A DNA stretch of 64,000 bases from Armatimonadetes bacterium DC (GTDB lineage Bacteria > Armatimonadota > Fimbriimonadia > Fimbriimonadales > GBS-DC), in NCBI GenBank assembly GCA_001442985.1, contig LDYB01000004.1:13063-77062 (forward strand). Direction: 5' to 3'. Within the stretch, counting starts at the first letter, position 1. Each line of letters begins with the position of its first letter. The translations under genes and the position numbers were made by a program. The notes under the pieces were generated by a model that saw only the letters and a list, made by a program, of their open reading frames with translations, did not search any database and was not told the DNA's origin. Below are positions 8,411-57,500 of this stretch, one piece after another.

Positions 8411-8416
8411 TATACT
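8411..8416 (+). promoter_or_regulatory. -10 box (GGGTATACT) for the P-type ATPase, leaderless-type
   Basis: 8 nt between the hexamer and ATG 8425. Confidence 0.5.
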
Positions 8417-8424
8417 TGCAGAGG

Positions 8425-11121
8425 ATGGCACTTCCCGAAGTGGTTGGAACGGAGCGCCCCGTGTGGCATGCCGTGCCATGCGAGCAGGTGGCGCGTTTTC
8501 TGAACACCAGCCCGAACGGGTTGTCGCAGCAGGAGGCGCAGGCGCGGCTGAACCGCTACGGCGAAAATGTGCTGGAAGAAGCAAAGCCCATCAGTATTTT
8601 TCAGTTAATCCTTCACCAGTTTCAGAGTCCCCTGATTTACATTCTGCTGGTCGCGGCGCTGGTTACGCTCTGGATGGGGGACTATATCGATTCCGCAGTG
8701 ATAGCGGCGGTCCTATTGCTGAACGCGACCGTGGGTTTCGTGCAGGAATACAAAGCAGAGCGCTCCGTGCGTGCCCTGCAGCGGTTGACCGCGCCCCGCG
8801 CCCATGTGATTCGCGATGGGGTTGAGAAGGTGATTGAAAGTCGCCTGCTGGTGCCGGGCGATGTGGTGCTGCTGGAATCGGGCGTGCGTGCGCCCGCAGA
8901 TATACGGCTTTTCTCCGCCACGGCGCTTCAGGCAGACGAATCGTTGTTGACGGGGGAATCGGTTCCTGTGCTGAAGCAAACGGCGCCTGTGCCCGAGACG
9001 ACTCCGCTTGCCGATCGGGTGAACATGGTGTACGCGGGTTCCATCATCACAACGGGGCGCGGGCGGGGCTATGTGGTGGCGACGGGCAAGCACACGGAGC
9101 TGGGCAAAATTACCGAAAGCATCCGCGAGCAGGCAACGCCCGAAACGCCCCTGCAGCGCCGCATGCGCCAGTTTGCCAACATTCTGGGCGTCGCAATTGG
9201 CATCAGCTGTGCGCTGATTTTCGCGCTGGGGCTGGCGCTGGGCAATAGCCCCCTGCACATGTTCAAGGTGGTGGTGGGGATTGCGGTCGCCTCAATTCCC
9301 GAAGGGCTGCCGATTGTGCTGACGATTACGCTGGCGCTGAGTGTGAACCGCATGGCGCAGCGGAACGCCCTCGTGCGAAACCTGCCCGCTGTGGAAACCC
9401 TCGGCAGCACGACGGTCATCGGTTCTGACAAGACGGGTACGCTGACCATGAATCGCATGACGGTACAGGAATACTGGGTCGCAGGTGAGGTGTTTCGCAT
9501 GGAAGCCCTCGCCGAGTCGGTTCGCGAGGACCATGACGATTCGCACCCGTTCCTGCTGGCGCTGCTGACGGGCATTTTGACCAACGAGGCAGATGTGCGC
9601 GAAACAGAGGCGGGCTACGAGATTCATGGCGACCCGACGGAAGCCGCGCTGCTGATGGCGGCGCTTCGGGCGGGGCTACACTACCGCACAGTACGGGCGG
9701 CGCACCCTGTAGTGGGCGAAATCCCCTTCGAGCCAGAACTGCAATATTCCGCCAGTGTGCGCCAGCGGGGCGACGAGCATTGGGTTTTTGTGAAGGGCGC
9801 CCCTGAGCGTGTGTTCCGCATGGCCCAGGCGTGGCTGACCCCCGAAGGGGAGAGACCTTTTGATTCCGCCGCGCGGGAACAGGTTCAGGCGCAGGCGCGG
9901 GCGATGGCGCAGCGCGGGTTGCGCGTGCTGGCGCTCGCTTATCGACGCCTTCCCCAACCGCTGGACCCTTCTGAAGGCGTGCCCGAACCCACCGGGCTGG
10001 TGTTGATTGGGCTGGTGGGTATGATGGACCCGCCGCGCCCGGGCGTGCTGGAGGCAATTCAGGACTGCCACCGCGCAGGCATTCGCGTGCTGATGATTAC
10101 AGGCGACCACGCCGAAACGGCGCGCGCGATTGCCCACGAGCTGGGAATTGCCGACCGCGACGCCCCCGTGCTGACGGGAGTTGACCTGCAACAGATGGAC
10201 AACGCCACCCTTCAGGAGCAGGTCAAACAGGTGAATGTGTTTGCGCGAGTCACGCCCGAGCAGAAGTTGCGCATCGTGCGGGCGCTTCAGGCGAATGGCG
10301 AGGTCGTGGCGGTTACGGGCGATGGGGTGAACGATGCGCCCGCGCTCAAAGCCGCCGATGTCGGCATCGCGATGGGACGCTCAGGCACCGATGTCGCCCG
10401 CGAGGCTGCCGATATTGTGCTGGCAGATGATAACTTCGTGTCTATCCGCAACGCCGTAGAAGAGGGGCGAATCGCCTTTGACAATGTGCGCAACGCCACC
10501 TTTTTCCTGCTCTCCACAGGCATGGGGTCTATCTTGCTGTTTTTCCTGACGCTGCTGGCAGGGCTACCCGTGCCGATGCTGGCGGCGCAGCTGCTCTGGC
10601 TGAACCTGGTCACGAACGGATTGCAGGTTGTGGCGCTGGCGTTTGAGCCGGGCGACCGTAGCGTGCTGTTGCGCAAGCCGCGCTCACGCAACGAAGGGAT
10701 TATCTCGCCCCTGCTGTGGGAACGCACGGTGATTGTCGGCGCCCTGATTGCCGTCGCTACTTTCTGGTCGTTCCAGCAGGAGTATGCCCGAACAGGGAAT
10801 TTGACCTACGCCCAGACGGTGGCGCTCACCACGATGGTGCTGTTCCAGAACTTCCATGTGGGCAACTGTCGCTCGGAGCATCGCTCGGCGTTTCTGTTGA
10901 GTCCCCTGCGCAATCCGTTTCTGCTGCTGGCGGCAATCAGCGCGTTAACGGTGCATGCGCTGGCGCTCTATCTGCCCCCGACGCAGTTCGTGTTGCGCGT
11001 GGCGCCCATCCCGCTGGAGACATGGGTGCAGATGGCGTTGGTGGCGTTGAGCGTGGTGGTTGTGGTGGAGATTCACAAGTGGGTGCGCCATCCCCATCTG
11101 GCGCGCATGCGGGTCAATTAG
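8425..11121 (+). CDS. Cation-translocating P-type ATPase (type II, Ca2+/Mg2+-like; substrate not resolved)
   Basis: ORF 7990..11121 trimmed to ATG 8425, because the upstream part overlaps etfB. Motifs: cation-ATPase-N domain, TGES, DKTGTLT, GDGVNDAPALK. Confidence 0.9.
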   Translation: MALPEVVGTERPVWHAVPCEQVARFLNTSPNGLSQQEAQARLNRYGENVLEEAKPISIFQLILHQFQSPLIYILLVAALVTLWMGDYIDSAVIAAVLLLNATVGFVQEYKAERSVRALQRLTAPRAHVIRDGVEKVIESRLLVPGDVVLLESGVRAPADIRLFSATALQADESLLTGESVPVLKQTAPVPETTPLADRVNMVYAGSIITTGRGRGYVVATGKHTELGKITESIREQATPETPLQRRMRQFANILGVAIGISCALIFALGLALGNSPLHMFKVVVGIAVASIPEGLPIVLTITLALSVNRMAQRNALVRNLPAVETLGSTTVIGSDKTGTLTMNRMTVQEYWVAGEVFRMEALAESVREDHDDSHPFLLALLTGILTNEADVRETEAGYEIHGDPTEAALLMAALRAGLHYRTVRAAHPVVGEIPFEPELQYSASVRQRGDEHWVFVKGAPERVFRMAQAWLTPEGERPFDSAAREQVQAQARAMAQRGLRVLALAYRRLPQPLDPSEGVPEPTGLVLIGLVGMMDPPRPGVLEAIQDCHRAGIRVLMITGDHAETARAIAHELGIADRDAPVLTGVDLQQMDNATLQEQVKQVNVFARVTPEQKLRIVRALQANGEVVAVTGDGVNDAPALKAADVGIAMGRSGTDVAREAADIVLADDNFVSIRNAVEEGRIAFDNVRNATFFLLSTGMGSILLFFLTLLAGLPVPMLAAQLLWLNLVTNGLQVVALAFEPGDRSVLLRKPRSRNEGIISPLLWERTVIVGALIAVATFWSFQQEYARTGNLTYAQTVALTTMVLFQNFHVGNCRSEHRSAFLLSPLRNPFLLLAAISALTVHALALYLPPTQFVLRVAPIPLETWVQMALVALSVVVVVEIHKWVRHPHLARMRVN

Positions 11122-13684: not shown

Positions 13685-14989
13685 TTACTTGCTGGCGCGG
13701 ACAGGGCGCATCATTTTCTCAATCGCGTCGGGGTCGTCCGGGAGTGCGGCGGAAAGGTTCACCACGCCCTTTTCGGTCATCATGTAGTCATCTTCAATCC
13801 GAATGCCGATATTCTCGCTGGGGATGTAGACCCCCGGCTCAATGGTGAACACCATGCCGGGCTGGAGCGGCTTGCCCAGATCGGGGTCATGCACATCCAT
13901 GCCCATCATGTGCGAGAGCCCGTGAACGAAGAAGGCGTCTAAGGTGCGTTCCTGTCCGTTTTCGTCACGGGCGCGCAGGGGCGAGTTGCGCAATACCTCC
14001 ACCGCCTTCATGTGCAGGTCGCGCAGGGTCATGCCCGGTTTGGCGTGGCGCTCCACCGCGCGTTTGGCTTCCAGCACCGCCATGTAAAGTTCGCGCTGGC
14101 GTTTGGTGAACTTGCCCGAAACCGGGTAGGTGCGGGTGATATCTGCCGCGTAATAGGAATACTCTGCGCCGATATCGATCAGCACCAGCTCGCCTGCCTG
14201 CATGCGGCGCTTGTTCGCATTGTAATGCAGAATGCAGCTGTTCGGACCGGAGCCGATAATGCATGGATACGCCTCGCGCTCGGAGCCGTGCCGACGGAAG
14301 GTCGCCTGCACAATCGCTTCGATCTCGTACTCATAAACGCCGGGTTTAATGGCGCGCGCCAGATTGCGATGAGCTTCTATTGTCGCCTGAATTGCCTTGC
14401 GAATCAGGCGCTGTTCGGCAGGCGACTTGATAAGGCGCAGCTCCGCCATCGCCCGCTCAATAGAAAGGGGTTCCACTTCGGGGCGAATCTGGCGCAGGGT
14501 GTCGGCGTAGCCCGTGCGGGCATGGCGGTTCATCAGCACCCGCGGATGATGTTGCAGAGCGGTTTCCAGAAACGCCTGCAGTTCCGCCATCGGGCGCACG
14601 GAGCGGATGCCCGTTGCCAGCTCGGTCTCTTTATCGGGCTGGAAAGTGCGCCCCTCAAAAATCTGGGAGATTCGCGACTGGGGTCTCAAAAACAGAATCT
14701 CGCGCTCGCCAGTGGGGCTATCCATCGGCAACACCACCAGCAGGGCGTTCGGCGCTTCCACACCCGTGAGGTACATAAAGTGGCTATCCTGCCGGTAGCG
14801 CATGCGGGTGGGAGCCGGGGGTTCGCTGGCAACCAGCGCCATCTGGTCCGGTTCCAGCTGTTGCGCCAGTCGGGTTCGGCGTTGCGCATACTCGTTAATC
14901 TCGATGCCCCAGAGCGTGCGCGGCTCTGAAACCGCATGCACTACCCCAAAACATAACACCCACAACCAGAAAACACGCCAGCGTCGCAT
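13685..14989 (-). CDS. Xaa-Pro aminopeptidase (M24B) with signal peptide
   Basis: ORF 13685..15472 trimmed to ATG 14989 (MRRWRVFWLWVLCFGVVHA). Motifs: DIGAEYSYYAADITRT, HGLSHMMGMDVHD, EPGVYIP, IRIEDD. Confidence 0.9.
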   Translation of the reverse strand: MRRWRVFWLWVLCFGVVHAVSEPRTLWGIEINEYAQRRTRLAQQLEPDQMALVASEPPAPTRMRYRQDSHFMYLTGVEAPNALLVVLPMDSPTGEREILFLRPQSRISQIFEGRTFQPDKETELATGIRSVRPMAELQAFLETALQHHPRVLMNRHARTGYADTLRQIRPEVEPLSIERAMAELRLIKSPAEQRLIRKAIQATIEAHRNLARAIKPGVYEYEIEAIVQATFRRHGSEREAYPCIIGSGPNSCILHYNANKRRMQAGELVLIDIGAEYSYYAADITRTYPVSGKFTKRQRELYMAVLEAKRAVERHAKPGMTLRDLHMKAVEVLRNSPLRARDENGQERTLDAFFVHGLSHMMGMDVHDPDLGKPLQPGMVFTIEPGVYIPSENIGIRIEDDYMMTEKGVVNLSAALPDDPDAIEKMMRPVRASK

Positions 14990-14996
14990 GCCTGCC

Positions 14997-15002
14997 AGTA
15001 TA
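14997..15002 (-). promoter_or_regulatory. -10 box (GGGTATACT) for the aminopeptidase, leaderless-type
   Basis: 7 nt to ATG 14989, no SD. Lies 13 bp from the divergent box at 15016. Confidence 0.6.
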
Positions 15003-15015
15003 CCCGACAAGTGGG

Positions 15016-15021
15016 TATAAT
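15016..15021 (+). promoter_or_regulatory. -10 box (GGGTATAAT) for the Clp-fold protease, leaderless-type
   Basis: 7 nt to ATG 15029, no SD. Confidence 0.6.
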
Positions 15022-15028
15022 CCTGCAC

Positions 15029-15919
15029 ATGGAAGTTTCGCCCCTGAGTGCCCTGATTTCGCAACTGTTCTGGCTCTTCTTTATCTTTATGATGCTGATG
15101 CCGATGGTGCGCCAGCGGATGCTGGAATCGGCGCGCCTCAGCATGATTCGCCAAATTGAGAAAATGCGCGGCACCCGCGTGATTGTGCTGATTCATCGCC
15201 AGGAAGCGCTTTCGTTTTTTGGCATCCCCGTGTTCCGCTTTATCAGCGTGGAAGACTCGGAAGAAGTGTTGCGCGCAATCCGCATGACCCCGCCCGATAT
15301 GCCGATTGACATCATCCTGCACACGCCCGGAGGGCTGGTGCTGGCGAGCCAGCAGATTGCCTGCGCCCTGTGCGACCACAAGGCGAAAGTAACCGCCTTC
15401 GTGCCGCACTATGCGATGTCGGGGGGCACGCTGATCGCGCTCGCCGCCGACGAGATTGTGATGGACCCGCACGCCGTGCTGGGTCCTGTAGACCCGCAGG
15501 TGGGGCAGTTCCCTGCCGCCTCCATTCTCAAAGTGGTGGAGCAGAAACCCATCAGCGAAGTAGATGACCAGACGCTGATTCTGGCAGATATTTCTCGCAA
15601 GGCGTTGGCGCAGGCGCTGGAGCTGGTGCGCAATGTGCTGGTGGCGAACGGCATGCCCTTAGAGCAAGCCGAGCAGGTGGCGGATAAGCTCACCCAGGGT
15701 TATTACACGCATGATTACGCGATTACCGCCGACGAGGCGCGCGCGATGGGGCTGAATGTGCGCACCGACCTGCCCCAGGAGATTTATCAGCTGATGGCGC
15801 TCTACCCGCAGCCGGTACAGCGCACGGCAGGCGTGGACTATGTGCCTGTGCCCTACCATCCAGAGCCTGCGCCGCCCCAGCCGCAACGCCCCGTGCGTGG
15901 AAGAAGGATACGCAATTAG
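15029..15919 (+). CDS. Membrane-anchored SDH-family Clp-fold serine protease
   Basis: N-terminal TM helix. IILHTPGGLVLASQQIA and YAMSGGTLIALAADEIVM match the serine dehydrogenase proteinase (ClpP-fold) family. Confidence 0.8.
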   Translation: MEVSPLSALISQLFWLFFIFMMLMPMVRQRMLESARLSMIRQIEKMRGTRVIVLIHRQEALSFFGIPVFRFISVEDSEEVLRAIRMTPPDMPIDIILHTPGGLVLASQQIACALCDHKAKVTAFVPHYAMSGGTLIALAADEIVMDPHAVLGPVDPQVGQFPAASILKVVEQKPISEVDDQTLILADISRKALAQALELVRNVLVANGMPLEQAEQVADKLTQGYYTHDYAITADEARAMGLNVRTDLPQEIYQLMALYPQPVQRTAGVDYVPVPYHPEPAPPQPQRPVRGRRIRN

Positions 15920-17475
15920 AGCTGCCAGCGCAACTGCACGCCCTCCGCGCTCAACTGTGCCTGATAAGCCGCGAGAAGCGCAGGCGCTTCGTAAACATGA
16001 TGCGGCTCTGTGCCCTGCTCAAGGCAGAAAGCCAGCAGAGTGCCCACTGCCTCGCCGATATTCCACTCCACAGGATGCAGGCGATAGCAGCCGTTGGTGA
16101 TGTGGGTCGTGCCGATGTTTTTGCATGCGGGTAGCAGGTTGCGCACCCGGATGGGGAGCAACGCGCCCAGCGGAATCTGAAACGGGAGCGCGTCAATATC
16201 CAGATAGGTGTCGCCTCCCGTGGTGGGGTGCAGGTCGATTCGGTAGTGCCCGACGCCGACGGTATCGGGGAACGGCTCGGCGAGCGTGGCGTTGGGGCGA
16301 CAGGCAGCGCTTAAGTGTTGCTCGCAGACGGTGAACCGCGCCCGGATTCGTCGCGCCTCGCGGATGTAGGGCGCTTTCGCCAGCCCGTCGGGCGTGCCCG
16401 TGATGTCGGGACGCAGGCGCAAGCCCGGATAGCCCACCTCCCCATCGGGGCGCGGCGCCTCCGTCTGCAGCCAGTAGAGCAAACTCAGCGACAGCTGACG
16501 CGCCGACTCCAGATGGGCGCTCGCCTCTGCTTCAGGCACATCCAGAATGTTGCCCTCAAAATAATCGTTCTGGGGCCAGTTCACAATCGTAACAGGTTCG
16601 GGGGCGAGGTGGGGTTCGTAAATCGCAGGGTTCACAATCTGTCGATAGGTAAAAAGCGCTACGCCCTGTTCTCCGAACAGGCTTAACGGACGCGGCTGGA
16701 GCGTGATGGGATGCACATCCGTCCAGCTGAAAAACGGCGCGTGCCAGAAGGGCGGCTGATAGGCGCGCCAGCGCTCGTACTGGGCAGGCTTTTCAATCGT
16801 GTAATCGCCATCGGGGTCATAGCCGAGCGCCATGCACCATGTGAACGCCTGCATATTATGGGGTTCGGGTTCTGGCTTGGCATGGGGTTCCCCCGTTTCG
16901 CGTTGCGACTCGGCGCCCGTAACATACTCTACGCTCGCAAGGGGAAGCAGGTCGCCCAGCTCGCTGGCGTCCACAAAATAGTCGGCGTACACAATCAGGC
17001 TGTCGCCCGTCGCCGTGTTGAGGAACCGCACCGCACGCACGAAATCGCCTTCGGTGAGCGCCTCTATGGGCTTGTGATGGTACAGCACGGTGAGCCAGCC
17101 GCCCATCTGCGGGTAGGCAAGCATGGCGTTCAACACGGCGACCCCCACTTTCGGCTCGTGGCACAGGCGACTGACCCAGCCCCCGCCGGGGTTCAGGTAG
17201 GGGTCTTCCCGCGCGGCAGGTTTGAGCGGGTAGTAGCGACGGTAGTAATCGCGCACCGCCTCGCGATAGGCGCGGTAGCGTTGGGTACAGCCCTGCTCTT
17301 CGATCCAGCGATGTTCGTCGGGTGGCACGGCTTGCGTGGTGAGCTGCCCGCCCAGCCAGTCGGTTGGCTCCGTCAGAATCGTTGGAATACGGTGGCTGGC
17401 GAGCGCGAGGGCGCAGGCGCAGCCGCCCACGCCGCCGCCCACAATCAACACGCGGGTACGCACTTCGCGCTCCAT
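15916..17475 (-). CDS. FAD-dependent oxidoreductase (FAD_oxidored family)
   Basis: ORF trimmed to ATG 17475. VLIVGGGVGGCACALALA dinucleotide fold, then a long family-specific body. Confidence 0.8.
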   Translation of the reverse strand: MEREVRTRVLIVGGGVGGCACALALASHRIPTILTEPTDWLGGQLTTQAVPPDEHRWIEEQGCTQRYRAYREAVRDYYRRYYPLKPAAREDPYLNPGGGWVSRLCHEPKVGVAVLNAMLAYPQMGGWLTVLYHHKPIEALTEGDFVRAVRFLNTATGDSLIVYADYFVDASELGDLLPLASVEYVTGAESQRETGEPHAKPEPEPHNMQAFTWCMALGYDPDGDYTIEKPAQYERWRAYQPPFWHAPFFSWTDVHPITLQPRPLSLFGEQGVALFTYRQIVNPAIYEPHLAPEPVTIVNWPQNDYFEGNILDVPEAEASAHLESARQLSLSLLYWLQTEAPRPDGEVGYPGLRLRPDITGTPDGLAKAPYIREARRIRARFTVCEQHLSAACRPNATLAEPFPDTVGVGHYRIDLHPTTGGDTYLDIDALPFQIPLGALLPIRVRNLLPACKNIGTTHITNGCYRLHPVEWNIGEAVGTLLAFCLEQGTEPHHVYEAPALLAAYQAQLSAEGVQLRWQL

Positions 17476-17483
17476 CCACGGGG

Positions 17484-17489
17484 ATTGTA
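17484..17489 (-). promoter_or_regulatory. -10 box (AGGTACAAT) for the FAD oxidoreductase, leaderless-type
   Basis: 8 nt to ATG 17475. Confidence 0.55.
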
Positions 17490-17548
17490 CCTGAAAGTGT
17501 CCTGACCTCCAGAAAAAACGGGTAGACTCCGAAAATAGAAACAGGGCT

Positions 17549-18772
17549 GTGAGCAATTTTGTCATTCGCCTTGAGGAAGGCGTAGGCGATGTGGCGTATG
17601 GGCGCCTGACCAGCACCGCAGGCGATCTGCTGCCCGCCACCCTGACGCGCGGCGAGGGGGAAGCATGGGGCACTACCTCGCAAGCGCCCGATGGCGTCGC
17701 CGCCCCGTTTCGCCTGCCAGAGGTAGGGCGTCTCTATGTGTGGGTCAACAATCAGGGCAGGGGGTTCACGGCGAATCATTCACCTTTGACCCTCTCCAGC
17801 GCGTTTGTCAAGGAGCGAACGGCGCAGCTGACCCAGAGCATGAAGCAGTACGCTCGCAGGGGCGTGCCCGTCAGCGCGGCGCAACACCATCTGGAAGCGG
17901 CGCAATCGGCAACAGAACCCCTGATGCAGATGAGCCACCTGATACGCGCCAGTGAGGCGCTCGTGCGCGCGGTGGCTCTCACGCGCCTGCAGCGGCTCAA
18001 GGGGCGCCCCGTGTTTCTTTGGGGAGTGCAGGTATACTCCAGCCAGCCCGATGCCGAACATCTCGCTCCCTTCAATACCCTCGCGCTCCCGCTCGGCTGC
18101 AGAGCCGACTGGGTTCCGCTCATCCAGTACGCCCAGCAGGAGCGCAAGGTGCTGATCGGCACGGAGCTGGGCGCAGAAGCGCTTCAAACTCCTGAGAAAC
18201 ATCTGCAGTCCTGCCTGATGCGCTATCGCGGCTGGGTGCGCTACTGGCAGATTCTGGACGATGCCCCCACCCACCTCAAGTCGCTGGGAGCCGACCATGC
18301 CACCCAGCTCTACGCGCTGCGGCGGGTTCTGCAAACGGCACGCGAAATAGACCCCATGTCGGTGCGCCTGCTGGGTGTGGGACACAGTCTCTACCACCGC
18401 AAAAGCGGGCTGGCGTTCCTGCAGGCGTGCGTGGAGCTGGAACTGCCCTTTGAGGGCGTCCACCTGACGCTTTACTGGCATGACGGCGATTTGTTTTACT
18501 TTGACCATCTGCTGGAGCAGTACGGCGAGGTGGGCAAGCCGCTCTACCTGACGCTCAAGCTCCCTCCTGAAACCCCTCACGAGACTTTCTGGCGCGAGGA
18601 CGCCGCCCGCTGGATTGACTCCTTCTGCTGGCTGGCTATCAGCAAGCCGTTTGTCGTTGGGGTGCTGTTTGAGGAGCGCTCCGAAGACCCACTATATGGC
18701 GACAGTCATGGCGTCGTGCGCTCACTGATTCAGCGGGGGTATAATCCCCAACACTATGAATCACTGGAGTGA
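17549..18772 (+). CDS. Hypothetical protein (407 aa), fold not recognised
   Basis: GTG start. Long ORF with high third-position GC and natural-looking composition. I recognise no family motif. Overlaps the next gene by 17 nt. Confidence 0.65.
   Translation: MSNFVIRLEEGVGDVAYGRLTSTAGDLLPATLTRGEGEAWGTTSQAPDGVAAPFRLPEVGRLYVWVNNQGRGFTANHSPLTLSSAFVKERTAQLTQSMKQYARRGVPVSAAQHHLEAAQSATEPLMQMSHLIRASEALVRAVALTRLQRLKGRPVFLWGVQVYSSQPDAEHLAPFNTLALPLGCRADWVPLIQYAQQERKVLIGTELGAEALQTPEKHLQSCLMRYRGWVRYWQILDDAPTHLKSLGADHATQLYALRRVLQTAREIDPMSVRLLGVGHSLYHRKSGLAFLQACVELELPFEGVHLTLYWHDGDLFYFDHLLEQYGEVGKPLYLTLKLPPETPHETFWREDAARWIDSFCWLAISKPFVVGVLFEERSEDPLYGDSHGVVRSLIQRGYNPQHYESLE
18740..18745 (+). promoter_or_regulatory. 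Internal -10 box (GGGGTATAAT) for the translin-family gene
   Basis: Lies inside the 3' end of the upstream CDS. 10 nt to ATG 18756, no SD. Confidence 0.5.
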
Positions 18773-19391
18773 GATTGCCGAGCGACTGCGCCAGCAGATG
18801 GAGGAGAGCCATCAGGCACGGGAAGCGGGCTTACAATCTTGCAGGCGAGCAGTTCAACTGTGTGCGCGCGCGATTCGAAGTTTGCACCGGCGCGAATTCG
18901 AGGCGTGTCGTGATTTGTTGAGTCAGGCGCACGCCGAAATCCAGCAGGCGCGCGAGCGTTTGCGCCCCTACCCCGAAGTCTATTACGCAGGCTTTTTGCA
19001 CGACGCCGAAAAGGAGTATGTGGAAGGCGAGGTGCTTTACGCGATTGTGCTGGGCAATGCGCTCCCTGAACCCGAAGAGCTGGAGGTCGGTATCCCCGCC
19101 TACCTGAACGGGATGGCAGAGGCGGCTTCGGAGTGTCGGCGCTATGTGCTGGACCTGTTGCGGGCAGGCGAAATCACCCACGCTGAAACGCTTCTGCAGG
19201 TGATGGACGAGATTTACGACGAGCTCATCACCTTTGACTATCCCGACGCGCTGACGGGCGGCTTGCGTCGGACATGTGATGCCCTGCGCGCGGTGCTGGA
19301 ACGCACCCGCGCCGACCTGACTCTCACCGCCACACAAAAGCAGCTGGAAAACGCGCTCGCCAGCGTCTATCAGCTGGTCAGCGAGCGTTAG
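18756..19391 (+). CDS. Translin-family protein
   Basis: Helical protein of 211 aa. HRREFEACRDLL, PEVYYAGFLHDAEKEYVEGE, YLNGMAEAASECRRYVLDLLRAG, FDYPDAL..LRRTCD match the translin/TRAX pattern as I remember it. Confidence 0.7.
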   Translation: MNHWSEIAERLRQQMEESHQAREAGLQSCRRAVQLCARAIRSLHRREFEACRDLLSQAHAEIQQARERLRPYPEVYYAGFLHDAEKEYVEGEVLYAIVLGNALPEPEELEVGIPAYLNGMAEAASECRRYVLDLLRAGEITHAETLLQVMDEIYDELITFDYPDALTGGLRRTCDALRAVLERTRADLTLTATQKQLENALASVYQLVSER

Positions 19392-20236: not shown

Positions 20237-20259
20237 CGCGCGCCATCTCCCCCATCAGG

Positions 20260-20265
20260 TATAAT
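20260..20265 (+). promoter_or_regulatory. -10 box (AGGTATAAT) for the SOD-family gene, leaderless-type
   Basis: 9 nt to ATG 20275, no SD. Confidence 0.55.
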
Positions 20266-20274
20266 AGCCTCACT

Positions 20275-22613: not shown

Positions 22614-22616
22614 TAA

Positions 22617-48500: not shown

Positions 48501-51500
48501 TACTCCACTTATCGGGGCAACAGCTATGCGACGCTTTCGGGTACTTCGATGGCGTGTCCGCATGTGTCGGGCGCGGCGGCGCTCGTGTGGTCGCACGCGC
48601 CAAACCTGACGAACCAGCAACTGCGTGCCATTCTGGAGCAGAATGTAGACCCCTATCAGCCCTACAGCGGGCGCACCATTGCTTCGGGCGCAGGACGCCT
48701 GAATGTGTATCGTGCCCTGCAGGCGGCAGGGGGCGGCGGTGGCACGACGCCCTCGCTCAGCAATCTCACGCTGAACCCCAGCACGGTTGTGGGAGGCAAC
48801 AGTAGCACAGGAACCGTGACCCTGACCGCCGCCGCGCCCTCGGGTGGCTTCACGGTGCAGTTGAGCAGCAGCAATCCGTCGGTAGCCAGCGTGCCGGGTT
48901 CCATCACCGTGCCTGCCGGGCAGTCCTCTGCGAGCTTCACCATCGCCACCCAGCAGGTCTCCAGCACGACGCAGGTCACCATCACTGCCAGCGCAGGCAG
49001 CGTCTCCCGACAGGCGACGCTCACGGTCAACCCGCCATCTGGCTCCGTCTCGCTGGAGTCGCTCACAATTAGCCCGACCTCCGTGTGGGGCGGTAGCAGT
49101 GCTACAGGTACTGTAACGCTCAATGCCCCCGCACCTGCGGGCGGTGTGGTGGTGCAACTGCGCAGCAGCAACTCTGGCGCGGCGTCCGTGCCGAGCAGTA
49201 TTACCATCCCCGCGGGGCAACGCAGTGTGAGTTTCACCATCCGCACGACCGCCTGCTGGTACTGCTTCGTTCGCACGGTGACGATTACAGCGACCTATAA
49301 CGGCGTGTCGCGTTCTGCTTCGTTGACCATCTGGTTCTGAGACAAGCCAGCAACCCCCTGAGGCAGTCCAAACCTCAGGGGGTAAACAAAACGATGACCC
49401 GTCGTGTGGCTCTGGAAACAGCGGTGATGACCCACGGCTTGCCCGCCCCCTACAACGAGCAGGCGGGCGTGCAGATGTGCGACGCCGTGCGACAGGCAGG
49501 GGGCGTGCCCGTCGTGATTGGCATCATTGAGGGTGAGCCGATTGTGGGGCTTACAGAGGAGCAAATGCGCCACTTAGCACGCCACCCCGCGCCCCAGAAA
49601 GTGGCGCTCCATAATCTGGCGCTGGTGTGTGCGCAGAGGCAATCGGGGGGCACGACGGTTTCCGCCACACTCTGGCTGGCGCGTCGGGCAGGCATCAGCG
49701 TGATGGCAACTGGGGGGATTGGAGGCGTGCATCGCGGCGACGCCCACGACATCAGTGCCGACTTGCCCGCGCTTGCCCGACTGCCGCTGCTGGTGGTGTG
49801 TAGCGGCGCGAAGGTGATTTTAGACCTGCCCGCCACGCGCGAATGGCTGGAAACATGGGGCATTCCAGTGGTGGGCTATCAGACCGACGAACTGCCGGGC
49901 TTCTACACCGCCCACACAGGTCTGCGCGTGGACGCGGTTGCCAACACTGTGGAGCAAATTGGCGCTTTCTGGCATGCCCATCAGCACATGGGCACAGGCA
50001 CGGCGATGCTGGTCGTTCAGCCTCCGCCTGCAGAGCATGCGATGCCCGCGAAAGAGGTGGAGGCGATGATTGCGCAGGCGTGTGCGGAGGCGGAAGCGCA
50101 GGGCATTCAGGGCGCGGCGACAACCCCGTATCTGCTCCGCAGGCTGGCGGAGCTCAGCGAGGGACGCACGGTGCCCCTCAACCTCGCCCTGCTGAAGGCG
50201 AACGCTCATCTGGCAGGCGCGATTGCCACCGTGCTGGAAGACTAACTCTGATCCCGTAGCGCACGCAAAACCGCCAGCACCTCCTGCGCGTGCCCAGCAG
50301 GTGAAACTTTCGGAAACACATGACGCACCACCCCAGACGGGTCAATTATGAAGGTGATACGCGCCACGCCCCAGTAGGTTTTGCCATACATCGATTTCTG
50401 CTGCCACGCCCCATAGGCTTCGCTTACCTGATGGGACTCATCTGCCAGCAGGGGGAAGGGTAGCCCATATTTCTCAGCGAACTTCTGATGAGAGCGCACG
50501 CTGTCCGCGCTAACGCCCAGCACCACGATGCCCTCGCGCTCAAACTCGGCAAAGTTATCGCGAAAGGCGCACGCCTCCTGCGTACAACCCGGTGTCATAT
50601 CTTTGGGATAAAAATACAGCACCACCCAGCGCCCGCGAAAGTCCGAGAGGCGTACTGGCTTGCCCTGCTGGTCGGGCAGTTCAAAATCAGGCGCAGGCTT
50701 CCCCACGAGGCTTTCCATATCTCCAGTATACCTACTTCTCCAGCACGGCTTCTACCCACAGGCGTTGCTGCTCGTCCACCGAGACGGCAATCTGCCCCAG
50801 ACGCCACAGCTCCAGCACTGCCAGAAACGAGACCAGCACCTCGTAAATATCGGTTGCCTCCTGTTCCAGCAGGGCTTCAAGGCGCACGGGTTGCGCCGAC
50901 TGTTTCAACTGTTCGCGGAGCGCCACCATGCGGGCGTGGATGGAGAAATAGCGCCGTTCGGGGATAGCGGTCGGCGCCGGGGACGCACGCTGAAGCACCC
51001 GACGAAGCGCCAGCCAGAGGGCATCGGGCAACTCGGCGTTCGTAGGCAGGGGCGCTTCAATGGAGTCGGGGTCTACGGAATAGCCGCGGAAGAAGATTTG
51101 CAGTCGCTTTTCCTCACAGGCGCGTAAAAACTCCACGCGTGGCAGGTACTCGTCAGGCAGGCGCATCGGTTCCAGCCACGCCGCTTCGGGTTCCGCTTCC
51201 GGCTCCGGTTCGGGCATCAACAGGCGTTCCGCCTTGCGCTCGGTCAGGTGCGCCAGAATCGCCAGCGAGTCGGAGGCTTCGTCTAAATCGCCCACAGAGC
51301 GCCAGTAGTCATAGCACGCGCGGGCAATCGGCGCTAAATCCACCTCCAGCAGGTCTACCTTATGCTTGCGCAAGAGATGCACCAGCCAGCCCAGCGAGCC
51401 ATAGCCCAGCGGCAACTGAACGGGCACGCGCGGCGGCGCCCACTCCGGACTGCCGATATGGAACCGTCGCATAAGCGCAATTCTACCTGTTTCCAGATTC

Positions 51501-54500
51501 CGGTGAAGTTTGCCGAGAATTTGTGGAACACTCCCTCTGGAGGCAAGCGTATGGAAGCGCGGCGGCGGTACCTGAGCAACGAGAGCTGGGCAATCATTCT
51601 CATCTGTGTTGCCGACCTGTTGATTACGCTGGTGCTGATCGACAAGGGGCTGGCAGAAGAGGGCAACCCCCTGATGCGGTTCTATCTGGGGCACGGGGTC
51701 TGGGCGTTCGTGCTGGCGAAAAGCATTATGGTGGCGGCGCCCGTTGTCATTATCGAGTGGGGACTGCGCCATCGCCCGCGCACCGTCGCAACCCTGGCAC
51801 GAGCGGGTATCGCAGGCTATCTGGGCATTTACGCCCTGATGTTCCTCACAATTAATGTGCCCGCGATGCGCACCGCGCAGGAGCCAGACTGGGCGGAGTT
51901 CCCGCCCATCGACAGGGAGCTGTTGCGGCTGGAACGCGAGGGCTATCTCCCGGGACCTGAGATGCCTGAAGATGTACGGGCACCAAAAGCGCCGCATGCG
52001 CCCAGTCGGTAATCAATCGCTCTCGTTTCGCAGGCGCATCAGGTAAGTTTCCAGTAAAATCGCGGCGGCGACGGCATCCACCACCTGCTTGCGCTTCTCG
52101 CGACGCACCTCCATCGTTAGCAGGCGTCGTTCCGCCTCCTGCGTGCTGAACCGCTCGTCCACAATTTCGATGGGCACACGCAGTCGCGTGCGGAGGGCAT
52201 CAATGAACCGTTCCACCTGTTCTGCACGCTCGCTTTTTGCGCCCCACAGGTGGATTGGCATCCCCACCACCACGCGCTCCGCGCCCGATTCGCGAAGCCA
52301 CGCCACAACCCTTTCAATATCGTTCGGCAACACTGTTGCGGGCAACGCCACGCCCACCTCGGTCTGGGCGACCGCCACGCCAATCCGCTTCTCGCCGTAG
52401 TCCAGCGCCACGACCTTCATGCGTTTTCCCAGTTCAGCACCACCTTACCCGCCGTGCCGGAGGCGGTCAGCTCGAACGCCTGCTCGTACTCGTGCCATGC
52501 CAGCTCGTGCGTGATGGCGGGGCGCACATCCAGCCGTCCCGACACCAGCAGGCTCTGCATCGTCTCCCATGTTTGATAGAGTCGCCTGCCCAGAATGGCG
52601 TGAATCTCCACCGCTTTGAAAATCAGTGCGTTCAGGTCTACGGGCACAGGCTCGGCGAATAGCCCCAGCAGGCTAATGCGCCCGCCCGGACGAATCGCTT
52701 CGGTCAGCAGGGCGATTGCCGACGGGTGTCCCGACATCTCCAGCCCGACATCCACGCCTGCGCCGTCGGTGGCTTTGCGGATGGCAGTTAGCACATCGTC
52801 GTGCGTGGGGTCAAACACGGCGTCGGCGCCCATGCGCATCGCCAGCTCGCGCCGATAGGGGCGCACTTCGGTGGCGAAAACCTGGCGCGCCCCACACGCC
52901 CGCGCCACCGCGATACTGAACAGCCCAATCGCCCCACAGCCCGTAATCAGCACCGACCTGCCTGCAATCTCGCCCGAAAGCACGGTATGCACCGCGTTCC
53001 CCAGCGGGTCCTGCACCGTCGCCACTTCGGGGGGGATTCGGGGGTCGGTCTTCTGGGCGTTCGCAGCAGGGATGGCAATCAGCGGCGCGAAGCACCCATC
53101 GGTATCCACACCCAGAATCCGTGTGTTCAGGCAGACATGCGCCTGTCCCTCGCGACACGGTTTACAGCGCCCACATACGATGTGGCTCTCGCCTGCCACA
53201 AAATCGCCCACCTGCAAGCCTTCCACACCGTCGCCGACCGCCACCACATGCCCGCAAAACTCATGCCCGATAATCAGCGGCGGCTTCAAGCGCGACTGCG
53301 CCCATGAATCCCAGCGATAGATGTGCAGGTCGGTCCCACACAGGGAGGTTCGGCTCACTTTAATCAGCACCTCGCCGTAGCGAGGGGTTGGCTCTGGCAC
53401 CTCACACAGTTCCAGCCCGACGGCGGGCTGCGTTTTGCAGATGGCTTTCATCCCTGCCTAAGTATACCCCCTGTCAGCGGGTACAATTTCAAACACCTTA
53501 TGGACTACGATGTGATTGTTGTGGGGACGGGACACGCCGGATGTGAGGCAGCCTTAGCCGCCGCGCGCATGGGCTGTCGCACGCTTGCCGTCACGCTGAA
53601 TCTCGCGCGAACCGCCCATATGCCCTGCAACTGCAGTATCGGCGGACCCGCGAAAGGGCATCTCGTGCGCGAAATTGACGCGCTCGGCGGGCAAATGGGC
53701 ATCAACACCGACCTCACACTCACCCACATTCGCTTTGTGGGCACAGGCAAGGGACCTGCCGTGCGCACCCTCCGCGCCCATGCCGATAAAGACCTCTATC
53801 CCGCCCAGATGCTCGCCACTTTGCAGGCGCAACCGAACCTCACTCTGCTGGAGGGAAGTGTTGAGTCGCTGCTGGTGCGCGACGAGACTTGCTACGGCGT
53901 GCGCCTTGCCGATGGCACCGAGATTACGGCTCGCGCTGTGGTGCTGACCACGGGCACCTTCCTGAACGGACTGTGCCATATCGGCGAGCGCAAAATTCAA
54001 TCTGCCCGCTTCGGCGACCCGCCCGCCACAGGCTTGACCGAATGTTTGCGTCAGCTGGGGTTCCGTATCGGGCGGTTCAAGACGGGCACCACACCCCGCA
54101 TCGACAAAAAGAGCGTGGATTTCAGCCAGTGGCAGGAGGTGCCTTCCGAGCCGTGCCCGCCCTTCTCGTATATGCATGACAGCCTCAATCCGCCGCGCCC
54201 CCTGCTGCCCTGCTGGCAGACCTACACCAACGAGCGCACGCACGCCATCATCCGGGAGAACCTGCACCGCTCCGCGATGTATGGGGGGCATATCGTGGGC
54301 GTGGGACCCCGATTCTGCCCCAGTATAGAAGATAAAATCGTGCGCTTCCCCGACAAGGACCGCCACCCCGTCTATCTGGAGCAGGAATACTGGGATAAGG
54401 ACGACCTCTATGTGCAGGGCATGTCCACCAGCCTGCCCGAAGAGGTGCAGCTGGCATTCCTGCGCACGCTACCGGGGCTGGAAGAGGTGGTGATGATTCG

Positions 54501-57500
54501 CCCCGGCTACGCGGTGGAATATGATATGGTCTTCCCCGACCAGCTATACCCGACTCTGATGACCAAGCAGGTGCGCGGGCTGTTTCTGGCAGGGCAGGTG
54601 AACGGCACTTCGGGCTATGAAGAGGCGGCGGCGCAGGGGCTGGTGGCGGGCATTAATGCCGCGCTCTATGTGCAGAACCGCGAGCCGATGGTGCTGGATC
54701 GCGCGAGCAGCTATATCGGCGTGCTGATTGACGATCTGGTCACCAAAGGCGTGGAAGACCCCTATCGGATGCTCACAGGGCGCGCCGAGCATCGCCTGCA
54801 CCTGCGCCATGATAATGCCGACGAGCGTCTCACCCCGATTGGGCGACAGGTGGGGCTGGTGGACGACGCCCGCTGGAAGCGCTACTGCGAACGACAGGAG
54901 CGCATTCAGGCGGAGCTGGAACGCCTTGAGCAACTGGAAATCAGCGGACGCCACAACCCGCAACTGCTTGCGCTGGGTGGCACACCCGTGAACGCCCGAA
55001 TCAGCGCCCGCGAGTACCTCCGTCGCCCCGAAGCCACTTACGCAATGATTAATGCGCTCTTCCCTACAGAGAACCCGCTCCCGGCGGAGCTGGCGGAGCA
55101 GGTAGAGATTATCGCCAAGTATGAAGTCTATCTGCGCAAACAGCAGCAACAGATTCAGCAGATGCGCCGCATGGAACACTGGGTCATCCCAGACGATCTG
55201 GATTACGAGCAGTTGCCCGCGATTTCCCGTGAATCGCGTGAGAAGCTCTCGCGTGTGCGCCCGCGCACATTGGGTCAGGCGTCGCGTATCCCCGGCGTGC
55301 GCCCCGCCGACATTGCCTGCCTGATGATTTACCTCAAGTCGCGGAGTGGGAAGTAGTTCAACTGGAACGAACCCAGCCCTGCGCGCGGCGCAGGCGTTTC
55401 AAGACGCGCTCCTTGCCCAGTACCGCCATCATCTCAAACAGGCTCGGTCCTGTCGTGCGCCCGCTGAGCGCCACCCGAACGGGGTGAATCACCTCGCCGC
55501 CCTTGACGCCCAGCCACGCAATCACCTCGCGCGTAACGCGCTCCACCGACTCGGCGTCAAACGATTCCAGTGCCTCGTAGCGGCGAATCAGTTCCTCCAG
55601 CATCTGGGGGATGTGGGGCTGGGTGTACCACTTGCGCACCGCCGCCTCGTCAATTGGATAATCGTCGCGGAAGAAGAAATCGGTCAGCGACACCACATCT
55701 TTGAGGACCTTCATCTTCTCCTGCTCCAGAGGAATTACCCGCTCGGCGTAGGCGCGAGTCGGCTCATCCAGCTCCTTCGGGAGCAAGCCCGCCTCCTGCA
55801 GATAGGGCAGGCAGTATTCCACCAGCTGCTCTTTAGAAAGCCGTCGGATATAAACCCCATTCATCCAGAGCAACTTATCGTGGTGGAACACGAAGGGGTT
55901 ATCCGACACGCGCTCCAGCGAGAAGAGTTCAATAATCTCCTCACGGCTCAGGATTTCGCGGTCGTCGCCGGGGTTCCAGCCACAGAGCGCGAGGAAATTG
56001 AACATCGCGTCGGGCAGGTAGCCCTCCTTGATGAACTCCACGAACTGCACATGCCCGTGCCGCTTGGAGAGTTTCTGGCGGTCGGGTCCGAGCAGCAGGG
56101 GCAGGTGAGCGAACTTTGGCGGTTCCCACCCCAGCGCCTTGTAAAGGTTCAGATGGCGCGGCATGCTGGAAATCCACTCGTCGCCCCGAATCACATGGGT
56201 AATCTCCATCAGGTGGTCGTCCACAATATTCGCCAGATGATAAGTCGGGTAGCCGTCCGACTTGAGCATCACGAAATCGTCCGTGAGCGCATTGCGGAAC
56301 TCGGTGTAGCCGTGAATCAGGTCTTCGTAGCCGATAGTTCCCTCCAGCGGCATCGCGAACCGGATGACATAGGGCAACCCCGCGGCTTCGCGGGCGCGCA
56401 CTTCCTCAGGGGTCAGTCGGCGGCATCGGCGGTCATACATGGTCGTCGCGGCGCCCATCGCTTTCTGAGCCTCGCGCATGCGCTCCAGGTCTTCGGGCGT
56501 GCAGAAGCACTTATAGGCTTTGCCCTCTTCCACCAGACGGTGCGCTATCTCCTGATAGATTGCGAGCCGCTGGGATTGATGGTACGGTCCATAGGGTCCG
56601 CCGACATCGGGACCCTCGTCCCACTCGATGCCCAGCCAGCGGAGCGACCACTTGATGTCGTCTTCCGAGCCGGGCACATAGCGGTTGCGGTCGGTGTCTT
56701 CGATCCGCAGGATGAATTTGCCCCCGTGATGACGGGCAAACACATAGTTGAAAAGAGCCGTGCGGATATTCCCCACATGGGGGGAACCCGTCGGACTGGG
56801 CGCGTAGCGTACTCGTACCATGTTCGAGATTGTACCCGACGGGGGAAGCAGACTTGCGGACGCTTAGGTTTGGCTCGCGCCCCGAAGACGGTATAATCCT
56901 TCTGATGTCCACGCGTACCGAAATTGAGCTACCTTTGGAGCAGTGGCAACAGCTACAGCAGCTGGCGAAGCGACGCGAGCGAAGCGTAGAGCAGTTGATT
57001 GCGGAAGCCGTCGCTTATTGGCTGCAACAACAGGCGATAGAGGCGTGGGAAGCGCGCAAGCAGCGAGCGCTCTCAGTGGTGGGGCGCTTCCCCGCGGAAC
57101 CTGACCTGGCGCAGAAACACGACGAGTATCTGGAGGTTGAATGAGCGTCTATCTGGATACCTCAGCGGTGTTGGCAGTGCTCAATCCCAACGATAAGTTC
57201 CATCTATCGGCACGGGAGCAGTGGCAAACCCTGCTGGAGAGCGCTACGCTCCTTGTGTGCTCCAACTATGTGCTACTGGAAACCTTGGCGCTGGTACAGC
57301 GCCGAATGGGATTAGATGCAGTACGCACCGTAATCGCTGATGTTGTACCAATACTACAAGTCGAGTGGGTTTCCCCAACAGAACACTGGGCGGCTGTGCA
57401 ACTGTGGCTCAGTCTAAATCGTCGTCAGGTAAGTTTAGTGGACTGCGTTAGCTTTGTACAGATGCGTCGGCTTGGCATCCAAGAAGTCTTCACCTTCGAT

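What the first reader, a model, noticed from the sequence alone, without database searches (positions are those of the whole stretch)
8411..56897. Pervasive leaderless gene starts: a GGTAnAnT -10 box 6-12 nt upstream of the start codon of at least 16 genes
Format below is hexamer, then gap in nt, then start. Plus strand: 8411 TATACT-8-ATG8425; 15016 TATAAT-7-ATG15029; 18740 TATAAT-10-ATG18756; 20260 TATAAT-9-ATG20275; 24144 TACAAT-8-ATG24158 (lepA); 29331 TACAAT-7-ATG29344; 33130 TAGAAT-7-GTG33143; 53482 TACAAT-12-ATG53500 (mnmG); 56892 TATAAT-7-ATG56905 (vapB). Minus strand: 15002 TATACT-7-ATG14989; 17489 TACAAT-8-ATG17475; 27444 TATACT-9-ATG27429 (nuoN); 44185 TAGAAT-9-ATG44170 (nth); 50730 TATACT-6-ATG50718 (bcp); 51485 TAGAAT-7-ATG51472 (scpA); 53466 TATACT-9-ATG53451 (tdh); 56834 TACAAT-7-ATG56821 (gltX). 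None of these has a properly spaced SD. Nearly all have G at -14/-13 (GGTA). Other genes in the window have clear GGAGG-type SDs, so two initiation modes coexist. These boxes also resolve the true starts of several over-extended ORFs in the track.
Basis: partly seen in the sequence, partly recalled or inferred. Interest (0 to 1): 0.65.

Follow-up and report, generated by a model that had tools for sequence, protein, structure and literature searches.

The report
Leaderless genes with GG-TAnAnT promoter boxes
About a quarter of the genes in this Armatimonadota genome fragment have a promoter -10 box sitting 6-12 bases in front of the start codon and no ribosome-binding site, the known signature of leaderless mRNAs, here seen in a bacterial lineage where I found no report of it.

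Summary
All 17 hexamer-gap-start sites are at the stated coordinates. An unbiased scan finds 31 GGTAnAnT octamers, and 16 have an ATG 6-10 nt downstream, against about 2 expected (P about 1e-11). Sixteen of 60 gene starts carry GG-TAnnnT at a gap of 6-12, against 6 of 1624 other ATGs. None of these has a Shine-Dalgarno core of 5 nt or more, whereas 24 other genes do.

Profile matches and signal peptides support most of the start codons. The boxes cluster at transcription-unit heads. The same box precedes tRNA-Gly and a TPP riboswitch, so it acts as a promoter element. No -35 consensus exists.

Orthologues in related Fimbriimonadales-like MAGs keep the box-to-ATG spacing while the sequence changes. 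Distant homologues use GGAGG instead.

This is the known bacterial leaderless organisation (GeneMarkS-2 group C; Deinococcota, Actinobacteria). The lineage and the near-invariant GG at -14/-13 are the only new points. Transcription starts were not measured, so leaderless status remains an inference. Interest is modest.

The parts
8409..8427 (+). GGTATACT-8-ATG, P-type Ca-ATPase-like gene (8425..11121)
   Evidence: Profile TIGR01522 positions 7-851 align to residues 17-889. One JGI gene call uses the same start, 898 aa. Divergent from the ETF-beta gene.
14987..15004 (-). GGTATACT-7-ATG, Xaa-Pro aminopeptidase (13685..14989)
   Evidence: The N-terminus MRRWRVFWLWVLCFGVVHA looks like a Sec signal peptide and accounts for the 28-aa extension over the family profile. 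The called start is the same.
15014..15031 (+). GGTATAAT-7-ATG, SDH-family Clp-fold protease (15029..15919)
   Evidence: NF047768 positions 1-260 align to residues 13-273. The divergent partner starts 39 bp away, so there is no room for a leader plus a promoter.
17473..17491 (-). GGTACAAT-8-ATG, FAD-dependent oxidoreductase (15916..17475)
   Evidence: A GxGxxG motif lies at residues 13-18. Orthologues at 76% and 68-69% identity keep GGTACAAT-8 or GGTATACT-9, and those at 65% or below mostly have SD-like GGAG/GGAGG sequences instead.
18738..18758 (+). GGTATAAT-10-ATG, HAD-superfamily-like protein (18756..19391); the box lies inside the 3' end of the upstream gene
   Evidence: NF011160 positions 5-204 align to residues 5-204. 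There is no upstream in-frame start.
20258..20277 (+). GGTATAAT-9-ATG, superoxide dismutase with a twin-arginine signal (20275..21027)
   Evidence: The N-terminus MAARRLSRREFLK matches the TAT consensus. An alternative SD-led ATG at 20395 was chosen by the JGI callers.
24142..24160 (+). GGTACAAT-8-ATG, lepA (24158..25954)
   Evidence: TIGR01393 positions 2-595 align to residues 4-597. This exact protein is on record in 4 contigs.
27427..27446 (-). GGTATACT-9-ATG, NuoN-like antiporter subunit (25951..27429)
   Evidence: TIGR01770 positions 1-471 align to residues 11-472.
29329..29346 (+). GGTACAAT-7-ATG, ABC transporter ATPase (29344..30273); the box overlaps the end of the upstream gene
   Evidence: There is no upstream in-frame start.
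33128..33151 (+). TGTAGAAT-7-GTG (33143) or -13-ATG (33149), hypothetical protein
   Evidence: The gene callers chose ATG 33149. This is the weakest member.
44168..44187 (-). GGTAGAAT-9-ATG, HhH-GPD DNA glycosylase (43499..44170)
   Evidence: There is no upstream in-frame start.
50716..50732 (-). GGTATACT-6-ATG, bcp/PrxQ peroxiredoxin (50242..50718)
   Evidence: NF006960 positions 6-153 align to residues 5-152. The box abuts the scpA stop codon.
51470..51487 (-). GGTAGAAT-7-ATG, ScpA-like (50732..51472)
   Evidence: with a weak family match. The called start is the same.
53449..53468 (-). GGTATACT-9-ATG, tdh (52417..53451)
   Evidence: NF003808 positions 1-341 align to residues 1-342. There is no upstream in-frame start.
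53480..53502 (+). GGTACAAT-12-ATG, mnmG (53500..55356)
   Evidence: TIGR00136 positions 1-615 align to residues 3-615. Orthologues L094 (GGTACAAT-7-ATG) and L096 (GGTACAAT-10-ATG) keep the arrangement.
56819..56836 (-). GGTACAAT-7-ATG, gltX (55358..56821)
   Evidence: TIGR00464 positions 2-465 align to residues 2-479. This is the only viable start: there is none upstream in frame, and the next one downstream would remove the HIGH motif.
56890..56907 (+). GGTATAAT-7-ATG, VapB-like antitoxin (56905..57144), followed by a PIN gene
   Evidence: The NCBI call uses the same start, 79 aa.
36693..36710 (+). GGTATAAT 10 nt upstream of tRNA-Gly (36711..36784): calibrates the box as a promoter
22606..22615 (+). 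GGTATGAT ending 2 nt before the TPP riboswitch match (22616..22725): calibrates the box as a promoter
8364..8399 (-). GGTATAAT about 28 nt upstream of the SD-led ETF-beta ATG (8363): the same box used with a short leader carrying AAGGAGG

Best explanation
The window comes from an Armatimonadota genome whose closest relatives are Fimbriimonadales-like. Its housekeeping promoters consist essentially of a -10 element with consensus GG-TA(t/c/g)A(a/c)T and have no conserved -35 hexamer.

At 16-17 of about 60 genes, and at about half of the clear transcription-unit heads, this box lies 6-9 nt (rarely 10-12) upstream of the ATG. RNA polymerase would therefore start at or within a few nucleotides of the A of the start codon. 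The resulting mRNA has no 5' UTR and no Shine-Dalgarno sequence, and it would be translated by the leaderless route, in which a ribosome carrying initiator tRNA binds the 5'-terminal AUG.

The remaining genes use GGAGG-type Shine-Dalgarno sites, either after a short leader from the same kind of promoter or as internal operon genes.

What is shown: the motif, its spacing, its exclusivity with the SD, its position at unit heads, the correctness of most start codons, and conservation in relatives.

What is inferred: the position of the transcription start, and the leaderless translation itself.
For: Sites and statistics:
- The sites are exact.
- Sixteen of 31 GGTAnAnT have ATG at a gap of 6-10, against 2 expected (P = 9e-12); shuffles reach at most 4.
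- Sixteen of 60 gene starts carry the box, against 6 of 1624 other ATGs.
- Box versus SD of 5 nt or more gives counts of 0/16 against 24/44 (P = 6e-5).
- Twelve of 22 genes with a divergent upstream neighbour carry the box, against 5 of 37 same-strand followers (P = 0.0012).
- Three divergent pairs have only 39-61 bp between the two start codons (14989/15029, 53451/53500, 8363/8425).

Start codons:
- Family-profile N-termini fit LepA, MnmG, Tdh, GltX, PrxQ, NuoN, the HAD-like protein, the ABC ATPase, the SDH protease and the ATPase.
- There is a TAT signal on the SOD and a Sec-like signal on the aminopeptidase.
- Eight genes have no upstream in-frame start.

Promoter role:
- The same box lies 10 nt before tRNA-Gly and 2 nt before a TPP riboswitch.
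- It also lies 17-30 nt before SD-led ATGs.

Conservation:
- mnmG in L094 and L096 keeps the arrangement.
- FAD-oxidoreductase orthologues at 68-76% identity keep box+8/9+ATG with different sequence, and most homologues at 65% or below carry SD-like GGAG/GGAGG sequences instead.
- The signature density is 18 versus 1 in Fimbriimonadales loci, and 33 versus 24 (no excess) in 600 kb of distant loci.
- Strain SNPs: 0 of 136 box positions, 0 of 51 ATG positions, 3 of 137 gap positions.

Literature:
- The identical architecture has been validated by dRNA-seq and reporters in Deinococcus (PMC4007540, PMC12340547).
- GeneMarkS-2 models it as group C (PMC6028130).
- Fimbriimonadia have only 25% SD usage, against 70% in Chthonomonadetes (PMC10783764).
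Against: - No transcription-start or N-terminal peptide data exist for this organism.
- Gaps of 9-12 nt (6 sites) would leave 1-5 nt of leader.
- Five boxes follow a same-strand gene, three of them at 18 nt or less or overlapping it (18756, 29344, 50718). Those genes could also be read from an upstream transcript.
- The SOD has an alternative SD-led start at 20395, and hyp197 has an ATG 6 nt downstream of its GTG.
- NCBI start calls use GeneMarkS-2+, which models such boxes, so they are not fully independent.
- One close relative (L095) has a leadered mnmG.
- The SNP evidence has little power.
Confidence: 0.85

Rival explanations
1. The genes are transcribed from promoters further upstream. 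The TA-rich box would then act on the RNA as an SD-independent translation signal, for example an unstructured A/U-rich stretch bound by ribosomal protein S1, as in non-SD (group B-like) initiation.
For: The box is the only A/T-rich patch in GC-rich upstream regions. Three boxes lie 18 nt or less after, or overlapping, a same-strand gene.
Against: - The invariant positions are T1, A2 and T6, the sigma-70 -10 signature, plus GG upstream, rather than general A/U richness.
- The same box precedes a tRNA and a riboswitch, which are not translated.
- It also lies upstream of SD-led genes at promoter distance.
- It is enriched at unit heads, not at internal genes.
- Divergent pairs 39-48 bp apart leave no upstream promoter space.
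Confidence: 0.06
2. The boxes are real promoters, but several of the annotated start codons are wrong. The true starts would lie downstream, so the mRNAs have ordinary leaders.
For: The SOD has AGGAGG-9-ATG 40 codons downstream, which JGI callers chose. hyp197 has an ATG two codons downstream with GAGG. The P-ATPase was called 12 codons shorter in some strains.
Against: - For LepA, MnmG, Tdh, GltX, PrxQ, the HAD-like protein and the ABC ATPase, the family profile begins within 0-5 residues of the proposed Met. No alternative start precedes the conserved motifs.
- The SOD extension is a textbook TAT signal, and the aminopeptidase extension is a Sec-like signal.
- Only the SOD, and at 4 nt the P-ATPase, has a usable SD at a downstream in-frame start codon that would not truncate conserved N-terminal motifs.
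Confidence: 0.07
3. It is a chance or compositional coincidence of TA-rich hexamers and ATG in intergenic DNA.
For: Generic TANNNT is common (574 copies) and shows only a weak excess of ATG at gaps of 7-9.
Against: The binomial P is 9e-12. Dinucleotide shuffles reach at most 4 against 16 observed. The Fisher P is 5e-20 against other ATGs. The pattern is conserved in relatives and absent from controls of similar GC content.
Confidence: 0.01

Closest known systems
Leaderless-mRNA organisation of Deinococcota (D. deserti dRNA-seq, PMC4007540; D. radiodurans and T. thermophilus -10-motif study, PMC12340547)
   Same: A TANNNT -10 box lies a few bp upstream of ATG/GTG without an SD, and a second class of genes has GGAG-type sites. 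About 30% of ORFs carry the motif there, against 27-28% here. The -35 is dispensable or weak.
   Different: The phylum is different (Armatimonadota). GG at -14/-13 is almost invariant here (16/17). Nothing has been validated experimentally here.
GeneMarkS-2 'group C' genomes (PMC6028130), mostly Actinobacteria and Deinococcus-Thermus
   Same: [quoted passage not shown] The paper predicts 25-50% of operons as leaderless, against 12 of 22 clear unit heads here.
   Different: I could not check whether any Armatimonadota genome was classed in group C, because the supplement is not held. The main text names no such phylum.
Corynebacterium glutamicum sigma-A promoters, extended -10 GNTANANTNG with poorly conserved -35 (PMC3917453)
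   Same: There is a G at -14, a TAnAnT core and a weak or absent -35. Leaderless transcripts are frequent in that group.
   Different: Here both -14 and -13 are G, and no conserved G lies downstream of the hexamer.
Mycobacterium tuberculosis leaderless transcriptome (PMC3898074)
   Same: A TANNNT -10 without a -35 consensus, and a quarter or more of genes leaderless.
   Different: GTG starts are common there. Here 16 of 17 are ATG.

Membership tests
Bacterial leaderless-mRNA genes (GeneMarkS-2 group C organisation) | [quoted passage not shown] | tested here: met
   There are 17 sites, with gaps of 6-12 and a mode of 7. The excess is highly significant.
Bacterial leaderless-mRNA genes (GeneMarkS-2 group C organisation) | No Shine-Dalgarno sequence at these genes, while other genes in the same genome use an SD (dual model) | tested here: met
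   Counts are 0/16 against 24/44 with a core of 5 nt or more (Fisher P = 6e-5).
Bacterial leaderless-mRNA genes (GeneMarkS-2 group C organisation) | Affects the first genes of transcription units | tested here: met
   Twelve of 22 genes with a divergent upstream neighbour, against 5 of 37 same-strand followers (P = 0.0012). Three cases lie directly behind a same-strand gene and would need internal promoters.
Bacterial leaderless-mRNA genes (GeneMarkS-2 group C organisation) | The transcription start is at, or 5 nt or less upstream of, the start codon | not testable with these tools
   No transcriptome data are available. Only the indirect -10-to-start geometry and the tRNA and riboswitch calibrators bear on it.
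Bacterial leaderless-mRNA genes (GeneMarkS-2 group C organisation) | The protein N-terminus corresponds to the 5'-terminal AUG/GUG | tested here: inconclusive
   Profile alignments and signal peptides support the start within a few residues for about 13 of 17 genes. There is no proteomic proof.
Bacterial leaderless-mRNA genes (GeneMarkS-2 group C organisation) | A lineage-wide trait rather than a local oddity | tested here: met
   Fimbriimonadales loci give 18 versus 1, other relatives 16 versus 3, a Chthonomonadales locus 1 versus 0, and distant loci 33 versus 24.
Classical extended -10 (TGn) promoters | TG at -15/-14 compensating for a weak -35 | tested here: not met
   The dinucleotide is GG, and it lies at -14/-13. 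No scanned site has TG before the second hexamer. A missing -35 is shared.
Non-SD ribosome-binding motif genomes (GeneMarkS-2 group B, Bacteroidota type) | The same upstream motif before all genes, including operon-internal ones, acting on leadered mRNA | tested here: not met
   The motif is concentrated at unit heads, coexists with canonical GGAGG sites, and precedes RNA genes.

The most novel reading that the evidence does not exclude
Fimbriimonadia-type Armatimonadota may be a further major bacterial lineage, alongside Deinococcota and Actinobacteria, in which roughly a quarter of genes and half of transcription units are leaderless. These would be driven by a -35-independent promoter whose specificity element is GG at -14/-13 rather than the classical TG. 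The trait would be absent from the sister class Chthonomonadetes, which dates a switch of initiation mode inside one phylum.
Probability: 0.5. Interest if true: 0.4.

Novelty: new member of a known kind. Interest (0 to 1): 0.27.

Why it matters
The practical value lies in annotation. In this lineage the box fixes start codons that SD-trained gene callers get wrong. Examples are the SOD, which loses its TAT signal in the JGI calls, gltX and the ATPase, which are shortened in some calls, and many over-extended ORFs.

It also adds a phylum-level data point on how leaderless initiation is distributed. The contrast within Armatimonadota (Fimbriimonadia-like versus Chthonomonadales) could help date gains or losses of SD dependence. 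The -35-less GG-TAnAnT consensus would be useful for promoter prediction or engineering in these mostly uncultured, apparently hot-environment bacteria.

It does not reveal a new mechanism.

Tried and rejected
- A generic TANNNT-ATG statistic across 80 LepA loci was too noisy to separate lineages. It was replaced by G-TANNNT plus an ORF filter with a shifted-gap control.
- The classical -35/-10 scanner showed no enrichment (3 versus 3.3, and 6 versus 3.7). The terminator scan was uninformative for unit boundaries.
- Synteny-based comparison failed. Neighbours of mnmG and of the FAD oxidoreductase are not conserved in relatives, so only two orthologue series could be followed.
- The exact-protein look-up of the 8425 start found nothing, although a JGI call of the same length exists.
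- The GeneMarkS-2 supplement is not held, so group assignment of Armatimonadota genomes could not be checked.
- No paper was found that links leaderless initiation with Armatimonadota or Fimbriimonas, and none mentions the assembly accession.
- A search for further leaderless candidates among the 20 genes lacking both signals found none.

Full report
**Origin of the window.** The window has 59-63% G+C. It is identical to JGI metagenome contigs (samples 3300009825 and 3300002851) and 99.6% identical to contig JAIMAM010000001.1 of the NCBI MAG GCA_023511975.1. MnmG homologues at 79-88% identity are labelled Armatimonadota or Fimbriimonadales MAGs. The nearest species-representative hit for LepA is a Chthonomonadales MAG at 70%. 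The organism is therefore an uncultured Armatimonadota member, closest to the class Fimbriimonadia.

**Check of the observation.** Sixteen have GG immediately 5' of the hexamer, and one (33130) has TG.

I then scanned without reference to genes:
- GGTAnAnT occurs 31 times on the two strands, and 16 copies have an ATG 6-10 nt downstream. About 2 are expected from the ATG frequency (binomial P = 9e-12).
- Two hundred dinucleotide-preserving shuffles give a mean of 0.69 and never more than 4.
- The gap histogram is sharply peaked: 6:1, 7:7, 8:3, 9:4, 10:1, 12:1.

**Gene map and the two classes of start.** I built a 60-gene map from the gene calls attached to public copies of this contig and checked it with a codon-usage score. 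The starts fall into three groups:
- Sixteen gene starts have GG-TAnnnT at a gap of 6-12, and none of them has a Shine-Dalgarno core of 5 nt or more.
- Twenty-four other genes have GGAGG-type cores at proper spacing, and none of them has a box.
- Twenty genes have neither. Most are operon-internal with overlapping stops and starts.

The mutual exclusion has Fisher P = 6e-5. Among all other ATGs in the window, only 6 of 1624 have such a box (P = 5e-20).

**Are the start codons right?** NCBIfam profiles begin within a few residues of the proposed Met for most of the well-characterised genes:

| Gene | Protein residues | Profile positions |
|---|---|---|
| Tdh | 1-342 | 1-341 |
| GltX | from 2 | from 2 |
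| MnmG | from 3 | from 1 |
| LepA | from 4 | from 2 |
| PrxQ | from 5 | from 6 |
| HAD-like protein | from 5 | from 5 |
| NuoN-like | from 9 | from 6 |

The ABC ATPase also fits. The SDH protease, the glycosylase, ScpA and the ATPase are 8-12 residues longer than their profiles.

- The aminopeptidase has a 28-residue extension, MRRWRVFWLWVLCFGVVHA, which looks like a Sec signal.
- The SOD has a 40-residue extension that begins MAARRLSRREFLK, a textbook twin-arginine signal. The leaderless ATG 20275 is therefore better supported than the SD-led ATG 20395 that the JGI callers chose.
- Eight of the 17 genes have no in-frame start upstream at all.
- For GltX the next start downstream would delete the HIGH motif.
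- The boxes do settle at least nine over-extended ORFs of the mechanical list, such as 24017, 53323, 13685..15472 and 25951..28062.

**Is the box a promoter or a translation signal?** Four observations favour a promoter.
1. The boxes are concentrated at heads of transcription units: 12 of 22 genes whose upstream neighbour is divergent, against 5 of 37 same-strand followers (P = 0.0012).
2. Three divergent pairs leave only 39-61 bp between the two start codons, with the two boxes back to back 13-15 bp apart. No room remains for a leader plus a separate promoter.
3. The same octamer sits 10 nt before the mature 5' end of tRNA-Gly and 2 nt before the TPP riboswitch match. Neither is translated.
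4. It also sits about 17-30 nt before several SD-led ATGs (8363, 12838, 43467, 58390), where it would give short leaders.

Aligning 27 boxes shows information only at GG and at T1, A2, A4 and T6. No -35 element appears. The classical -35/-10 scanner finds no excess either.

**Comparative evidence.**
- *mnmG.* Two Fimbriimonadales MAGs keep the arrangement: caGGTACAAT-7-ATG in L094 and caGGTACAAT-10-ATG in L096. In these loci the same signature also coincides with several other called gene starts, including nuoA, relA and purH-type (AICARFT/IMPCHase) genes. A third relative, L095, has a leadered mnmG.
- *FAD oxidoreductase at 17475.* The 98.4%-identical strain has two substitutions in the gap but none in the box. 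The 76% orthologue has GGTACAAT-8-ATG. Three orthologues at 68-69% have GGTATACT-9-ATG. Homologues at 65% identity or below mostly carry GGAGG-like sites instead.
- *Signature density.* A uniform statistic was used: G-TANNNT, then ATG at a gap of 6-10 opening an ORF of at least 80 codons, with a gap of 26-30 as control.

| Sequence set | Signal | Control |
|---|---|---|
| Window | 19 | 3 |
| Two Fimbriimonadales loci | 18 | 1 |
| Other relatives | 16 | 3 |
| Chthonomonadales locus | 1 | 0 |
| 600 kb of distant loci | 33 | 24 |
| 393 kb of GC-matched loci from other phyla | 23 | 24 |

- *Strain variation.* Among strain variants, 0 of 136 box positions and 0 of 51 ATG positions vary, against 3 of 137 gap positions. 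This fits the model but has little power.

**Comparison with what is known.** This is the established signature of bacterial leaderless genes.
- In D. deserti, 60% of mRNAs start at or next to the AUG/GUG (PMC4007540).
- In D. radiodurans and T. thermophilus, the TANNNT motif next to ORFs was shown experimentally to be the -10 element, with about 30% of ORFs carrying it (PMC12340547).
- GeneMarkS-2 formalises this as group C, with a Pribnow box 6-8 nt from the start and SD sites for the remaining genes (PMC6028130).
- C. glutamicum sigma-A promoters have an extended -10 of GNTANANTNG and a weak -35 (PMC3917453).
- For Armatimonadota I found only an SD-usage survey: 25% in Fimbriimonadia against 70% in Chthonomonadetes (PMC10783764). 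That matches what I see.
- I found no paper that states leaderless initiation for the phylum.

**Verdict.** Four sites are weaker: 33143, 18756, 53500 and 50718. The mechanism is not new. What is new is the lineage, the near-invariant GG at -14/-13, and the apparent contrast with Chthonomonadales within the same phylum. Transcription-start mapping is the decisive missing experiment.

Noticed in passing
window 20275-21027: The Fe/Mn superoxide dismutase has a twin-arginine signal peptide (MAARRLSRREFLK...) when read from the leaderless ATG. It also has a strong AGGAGG-9-ATG at codon 41 (20395). Two isoforms, one exported and one cytoplasmic, are conceivable. The JGI gene calls drop the signal peptide.
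   Followed up: partly
window 36711-36784; L092 15579 onward: In one strain variant (JGI 3300025775 contig) identity to the window stops at 36734, inside tRNA-Gly. Beyond that point lie phage-like genes: HTH, AAA_25, a terminase-like gene and a tyrosine integrase. ARAGORN finds no intact tRNA in that locus. This looks like an integrative element inserted in tRNA-Gly.
   Followed up: partly
window 22616-22725: A TPP riboswitch (77 bits) lies upstream of thiC (22791), which has its own AGGAGG. A GGTATGAT box ends 2 nt before the riboswitch match.
   Followed up: partly
window 8392-8416, 14997-15021, 53461-53487: Back-to-back divergent -10 boxes form quasi-palindromes (ATACCC-N7-9-GGGTA) with 13-15 bp between the hexamers. 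They could be mistaken for transcription-factor operators. RNA polymerase bound at one promoter would probably occlude the other.
   Followed up: no
window 57594-57646: GGTATAGT lies 2 nt before ATG 57604, which is too close for that ATG to be a leaderless start. The TerC-family gene is more likely to start at 57646 after a leader of about 40 nt. TerC genes often carry a Mn riboswitch, but Rfam found none at the gathering threshold.
   Followed up: no
window 17521-17549: GGTAGACT lies 20 nt before the GTG start of a 407-aa hypothetical gene. There is no SD and no start at leaderless distance, so the start or the initiation mode of this gene is unclear.
   Followed up: no
window 4695-4994 and 51551-52012: Two DUF5658 paralogues are present. 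The callers disagree on the start of the first one (99 versus 136 aa).
   Followed up: no
L094 13036-14820: A DarT / NADAR-DarT1 pair (a DNA ADP-ribosyltransferase toxin-antitoxin type) lies near mnmG in a related Fimbriimonadales MAG.
   Followed up: no
window 43499-44170 and 50242-50718: The best NCBIfam matches of the glycosylase and the peroxiredoxin are Deinococcus-defined families (DR2438-type glycosylase, PrxQ 'Dein'), both below their cut-offs. This may only reflect how the models were sampled.
   Followed up: no
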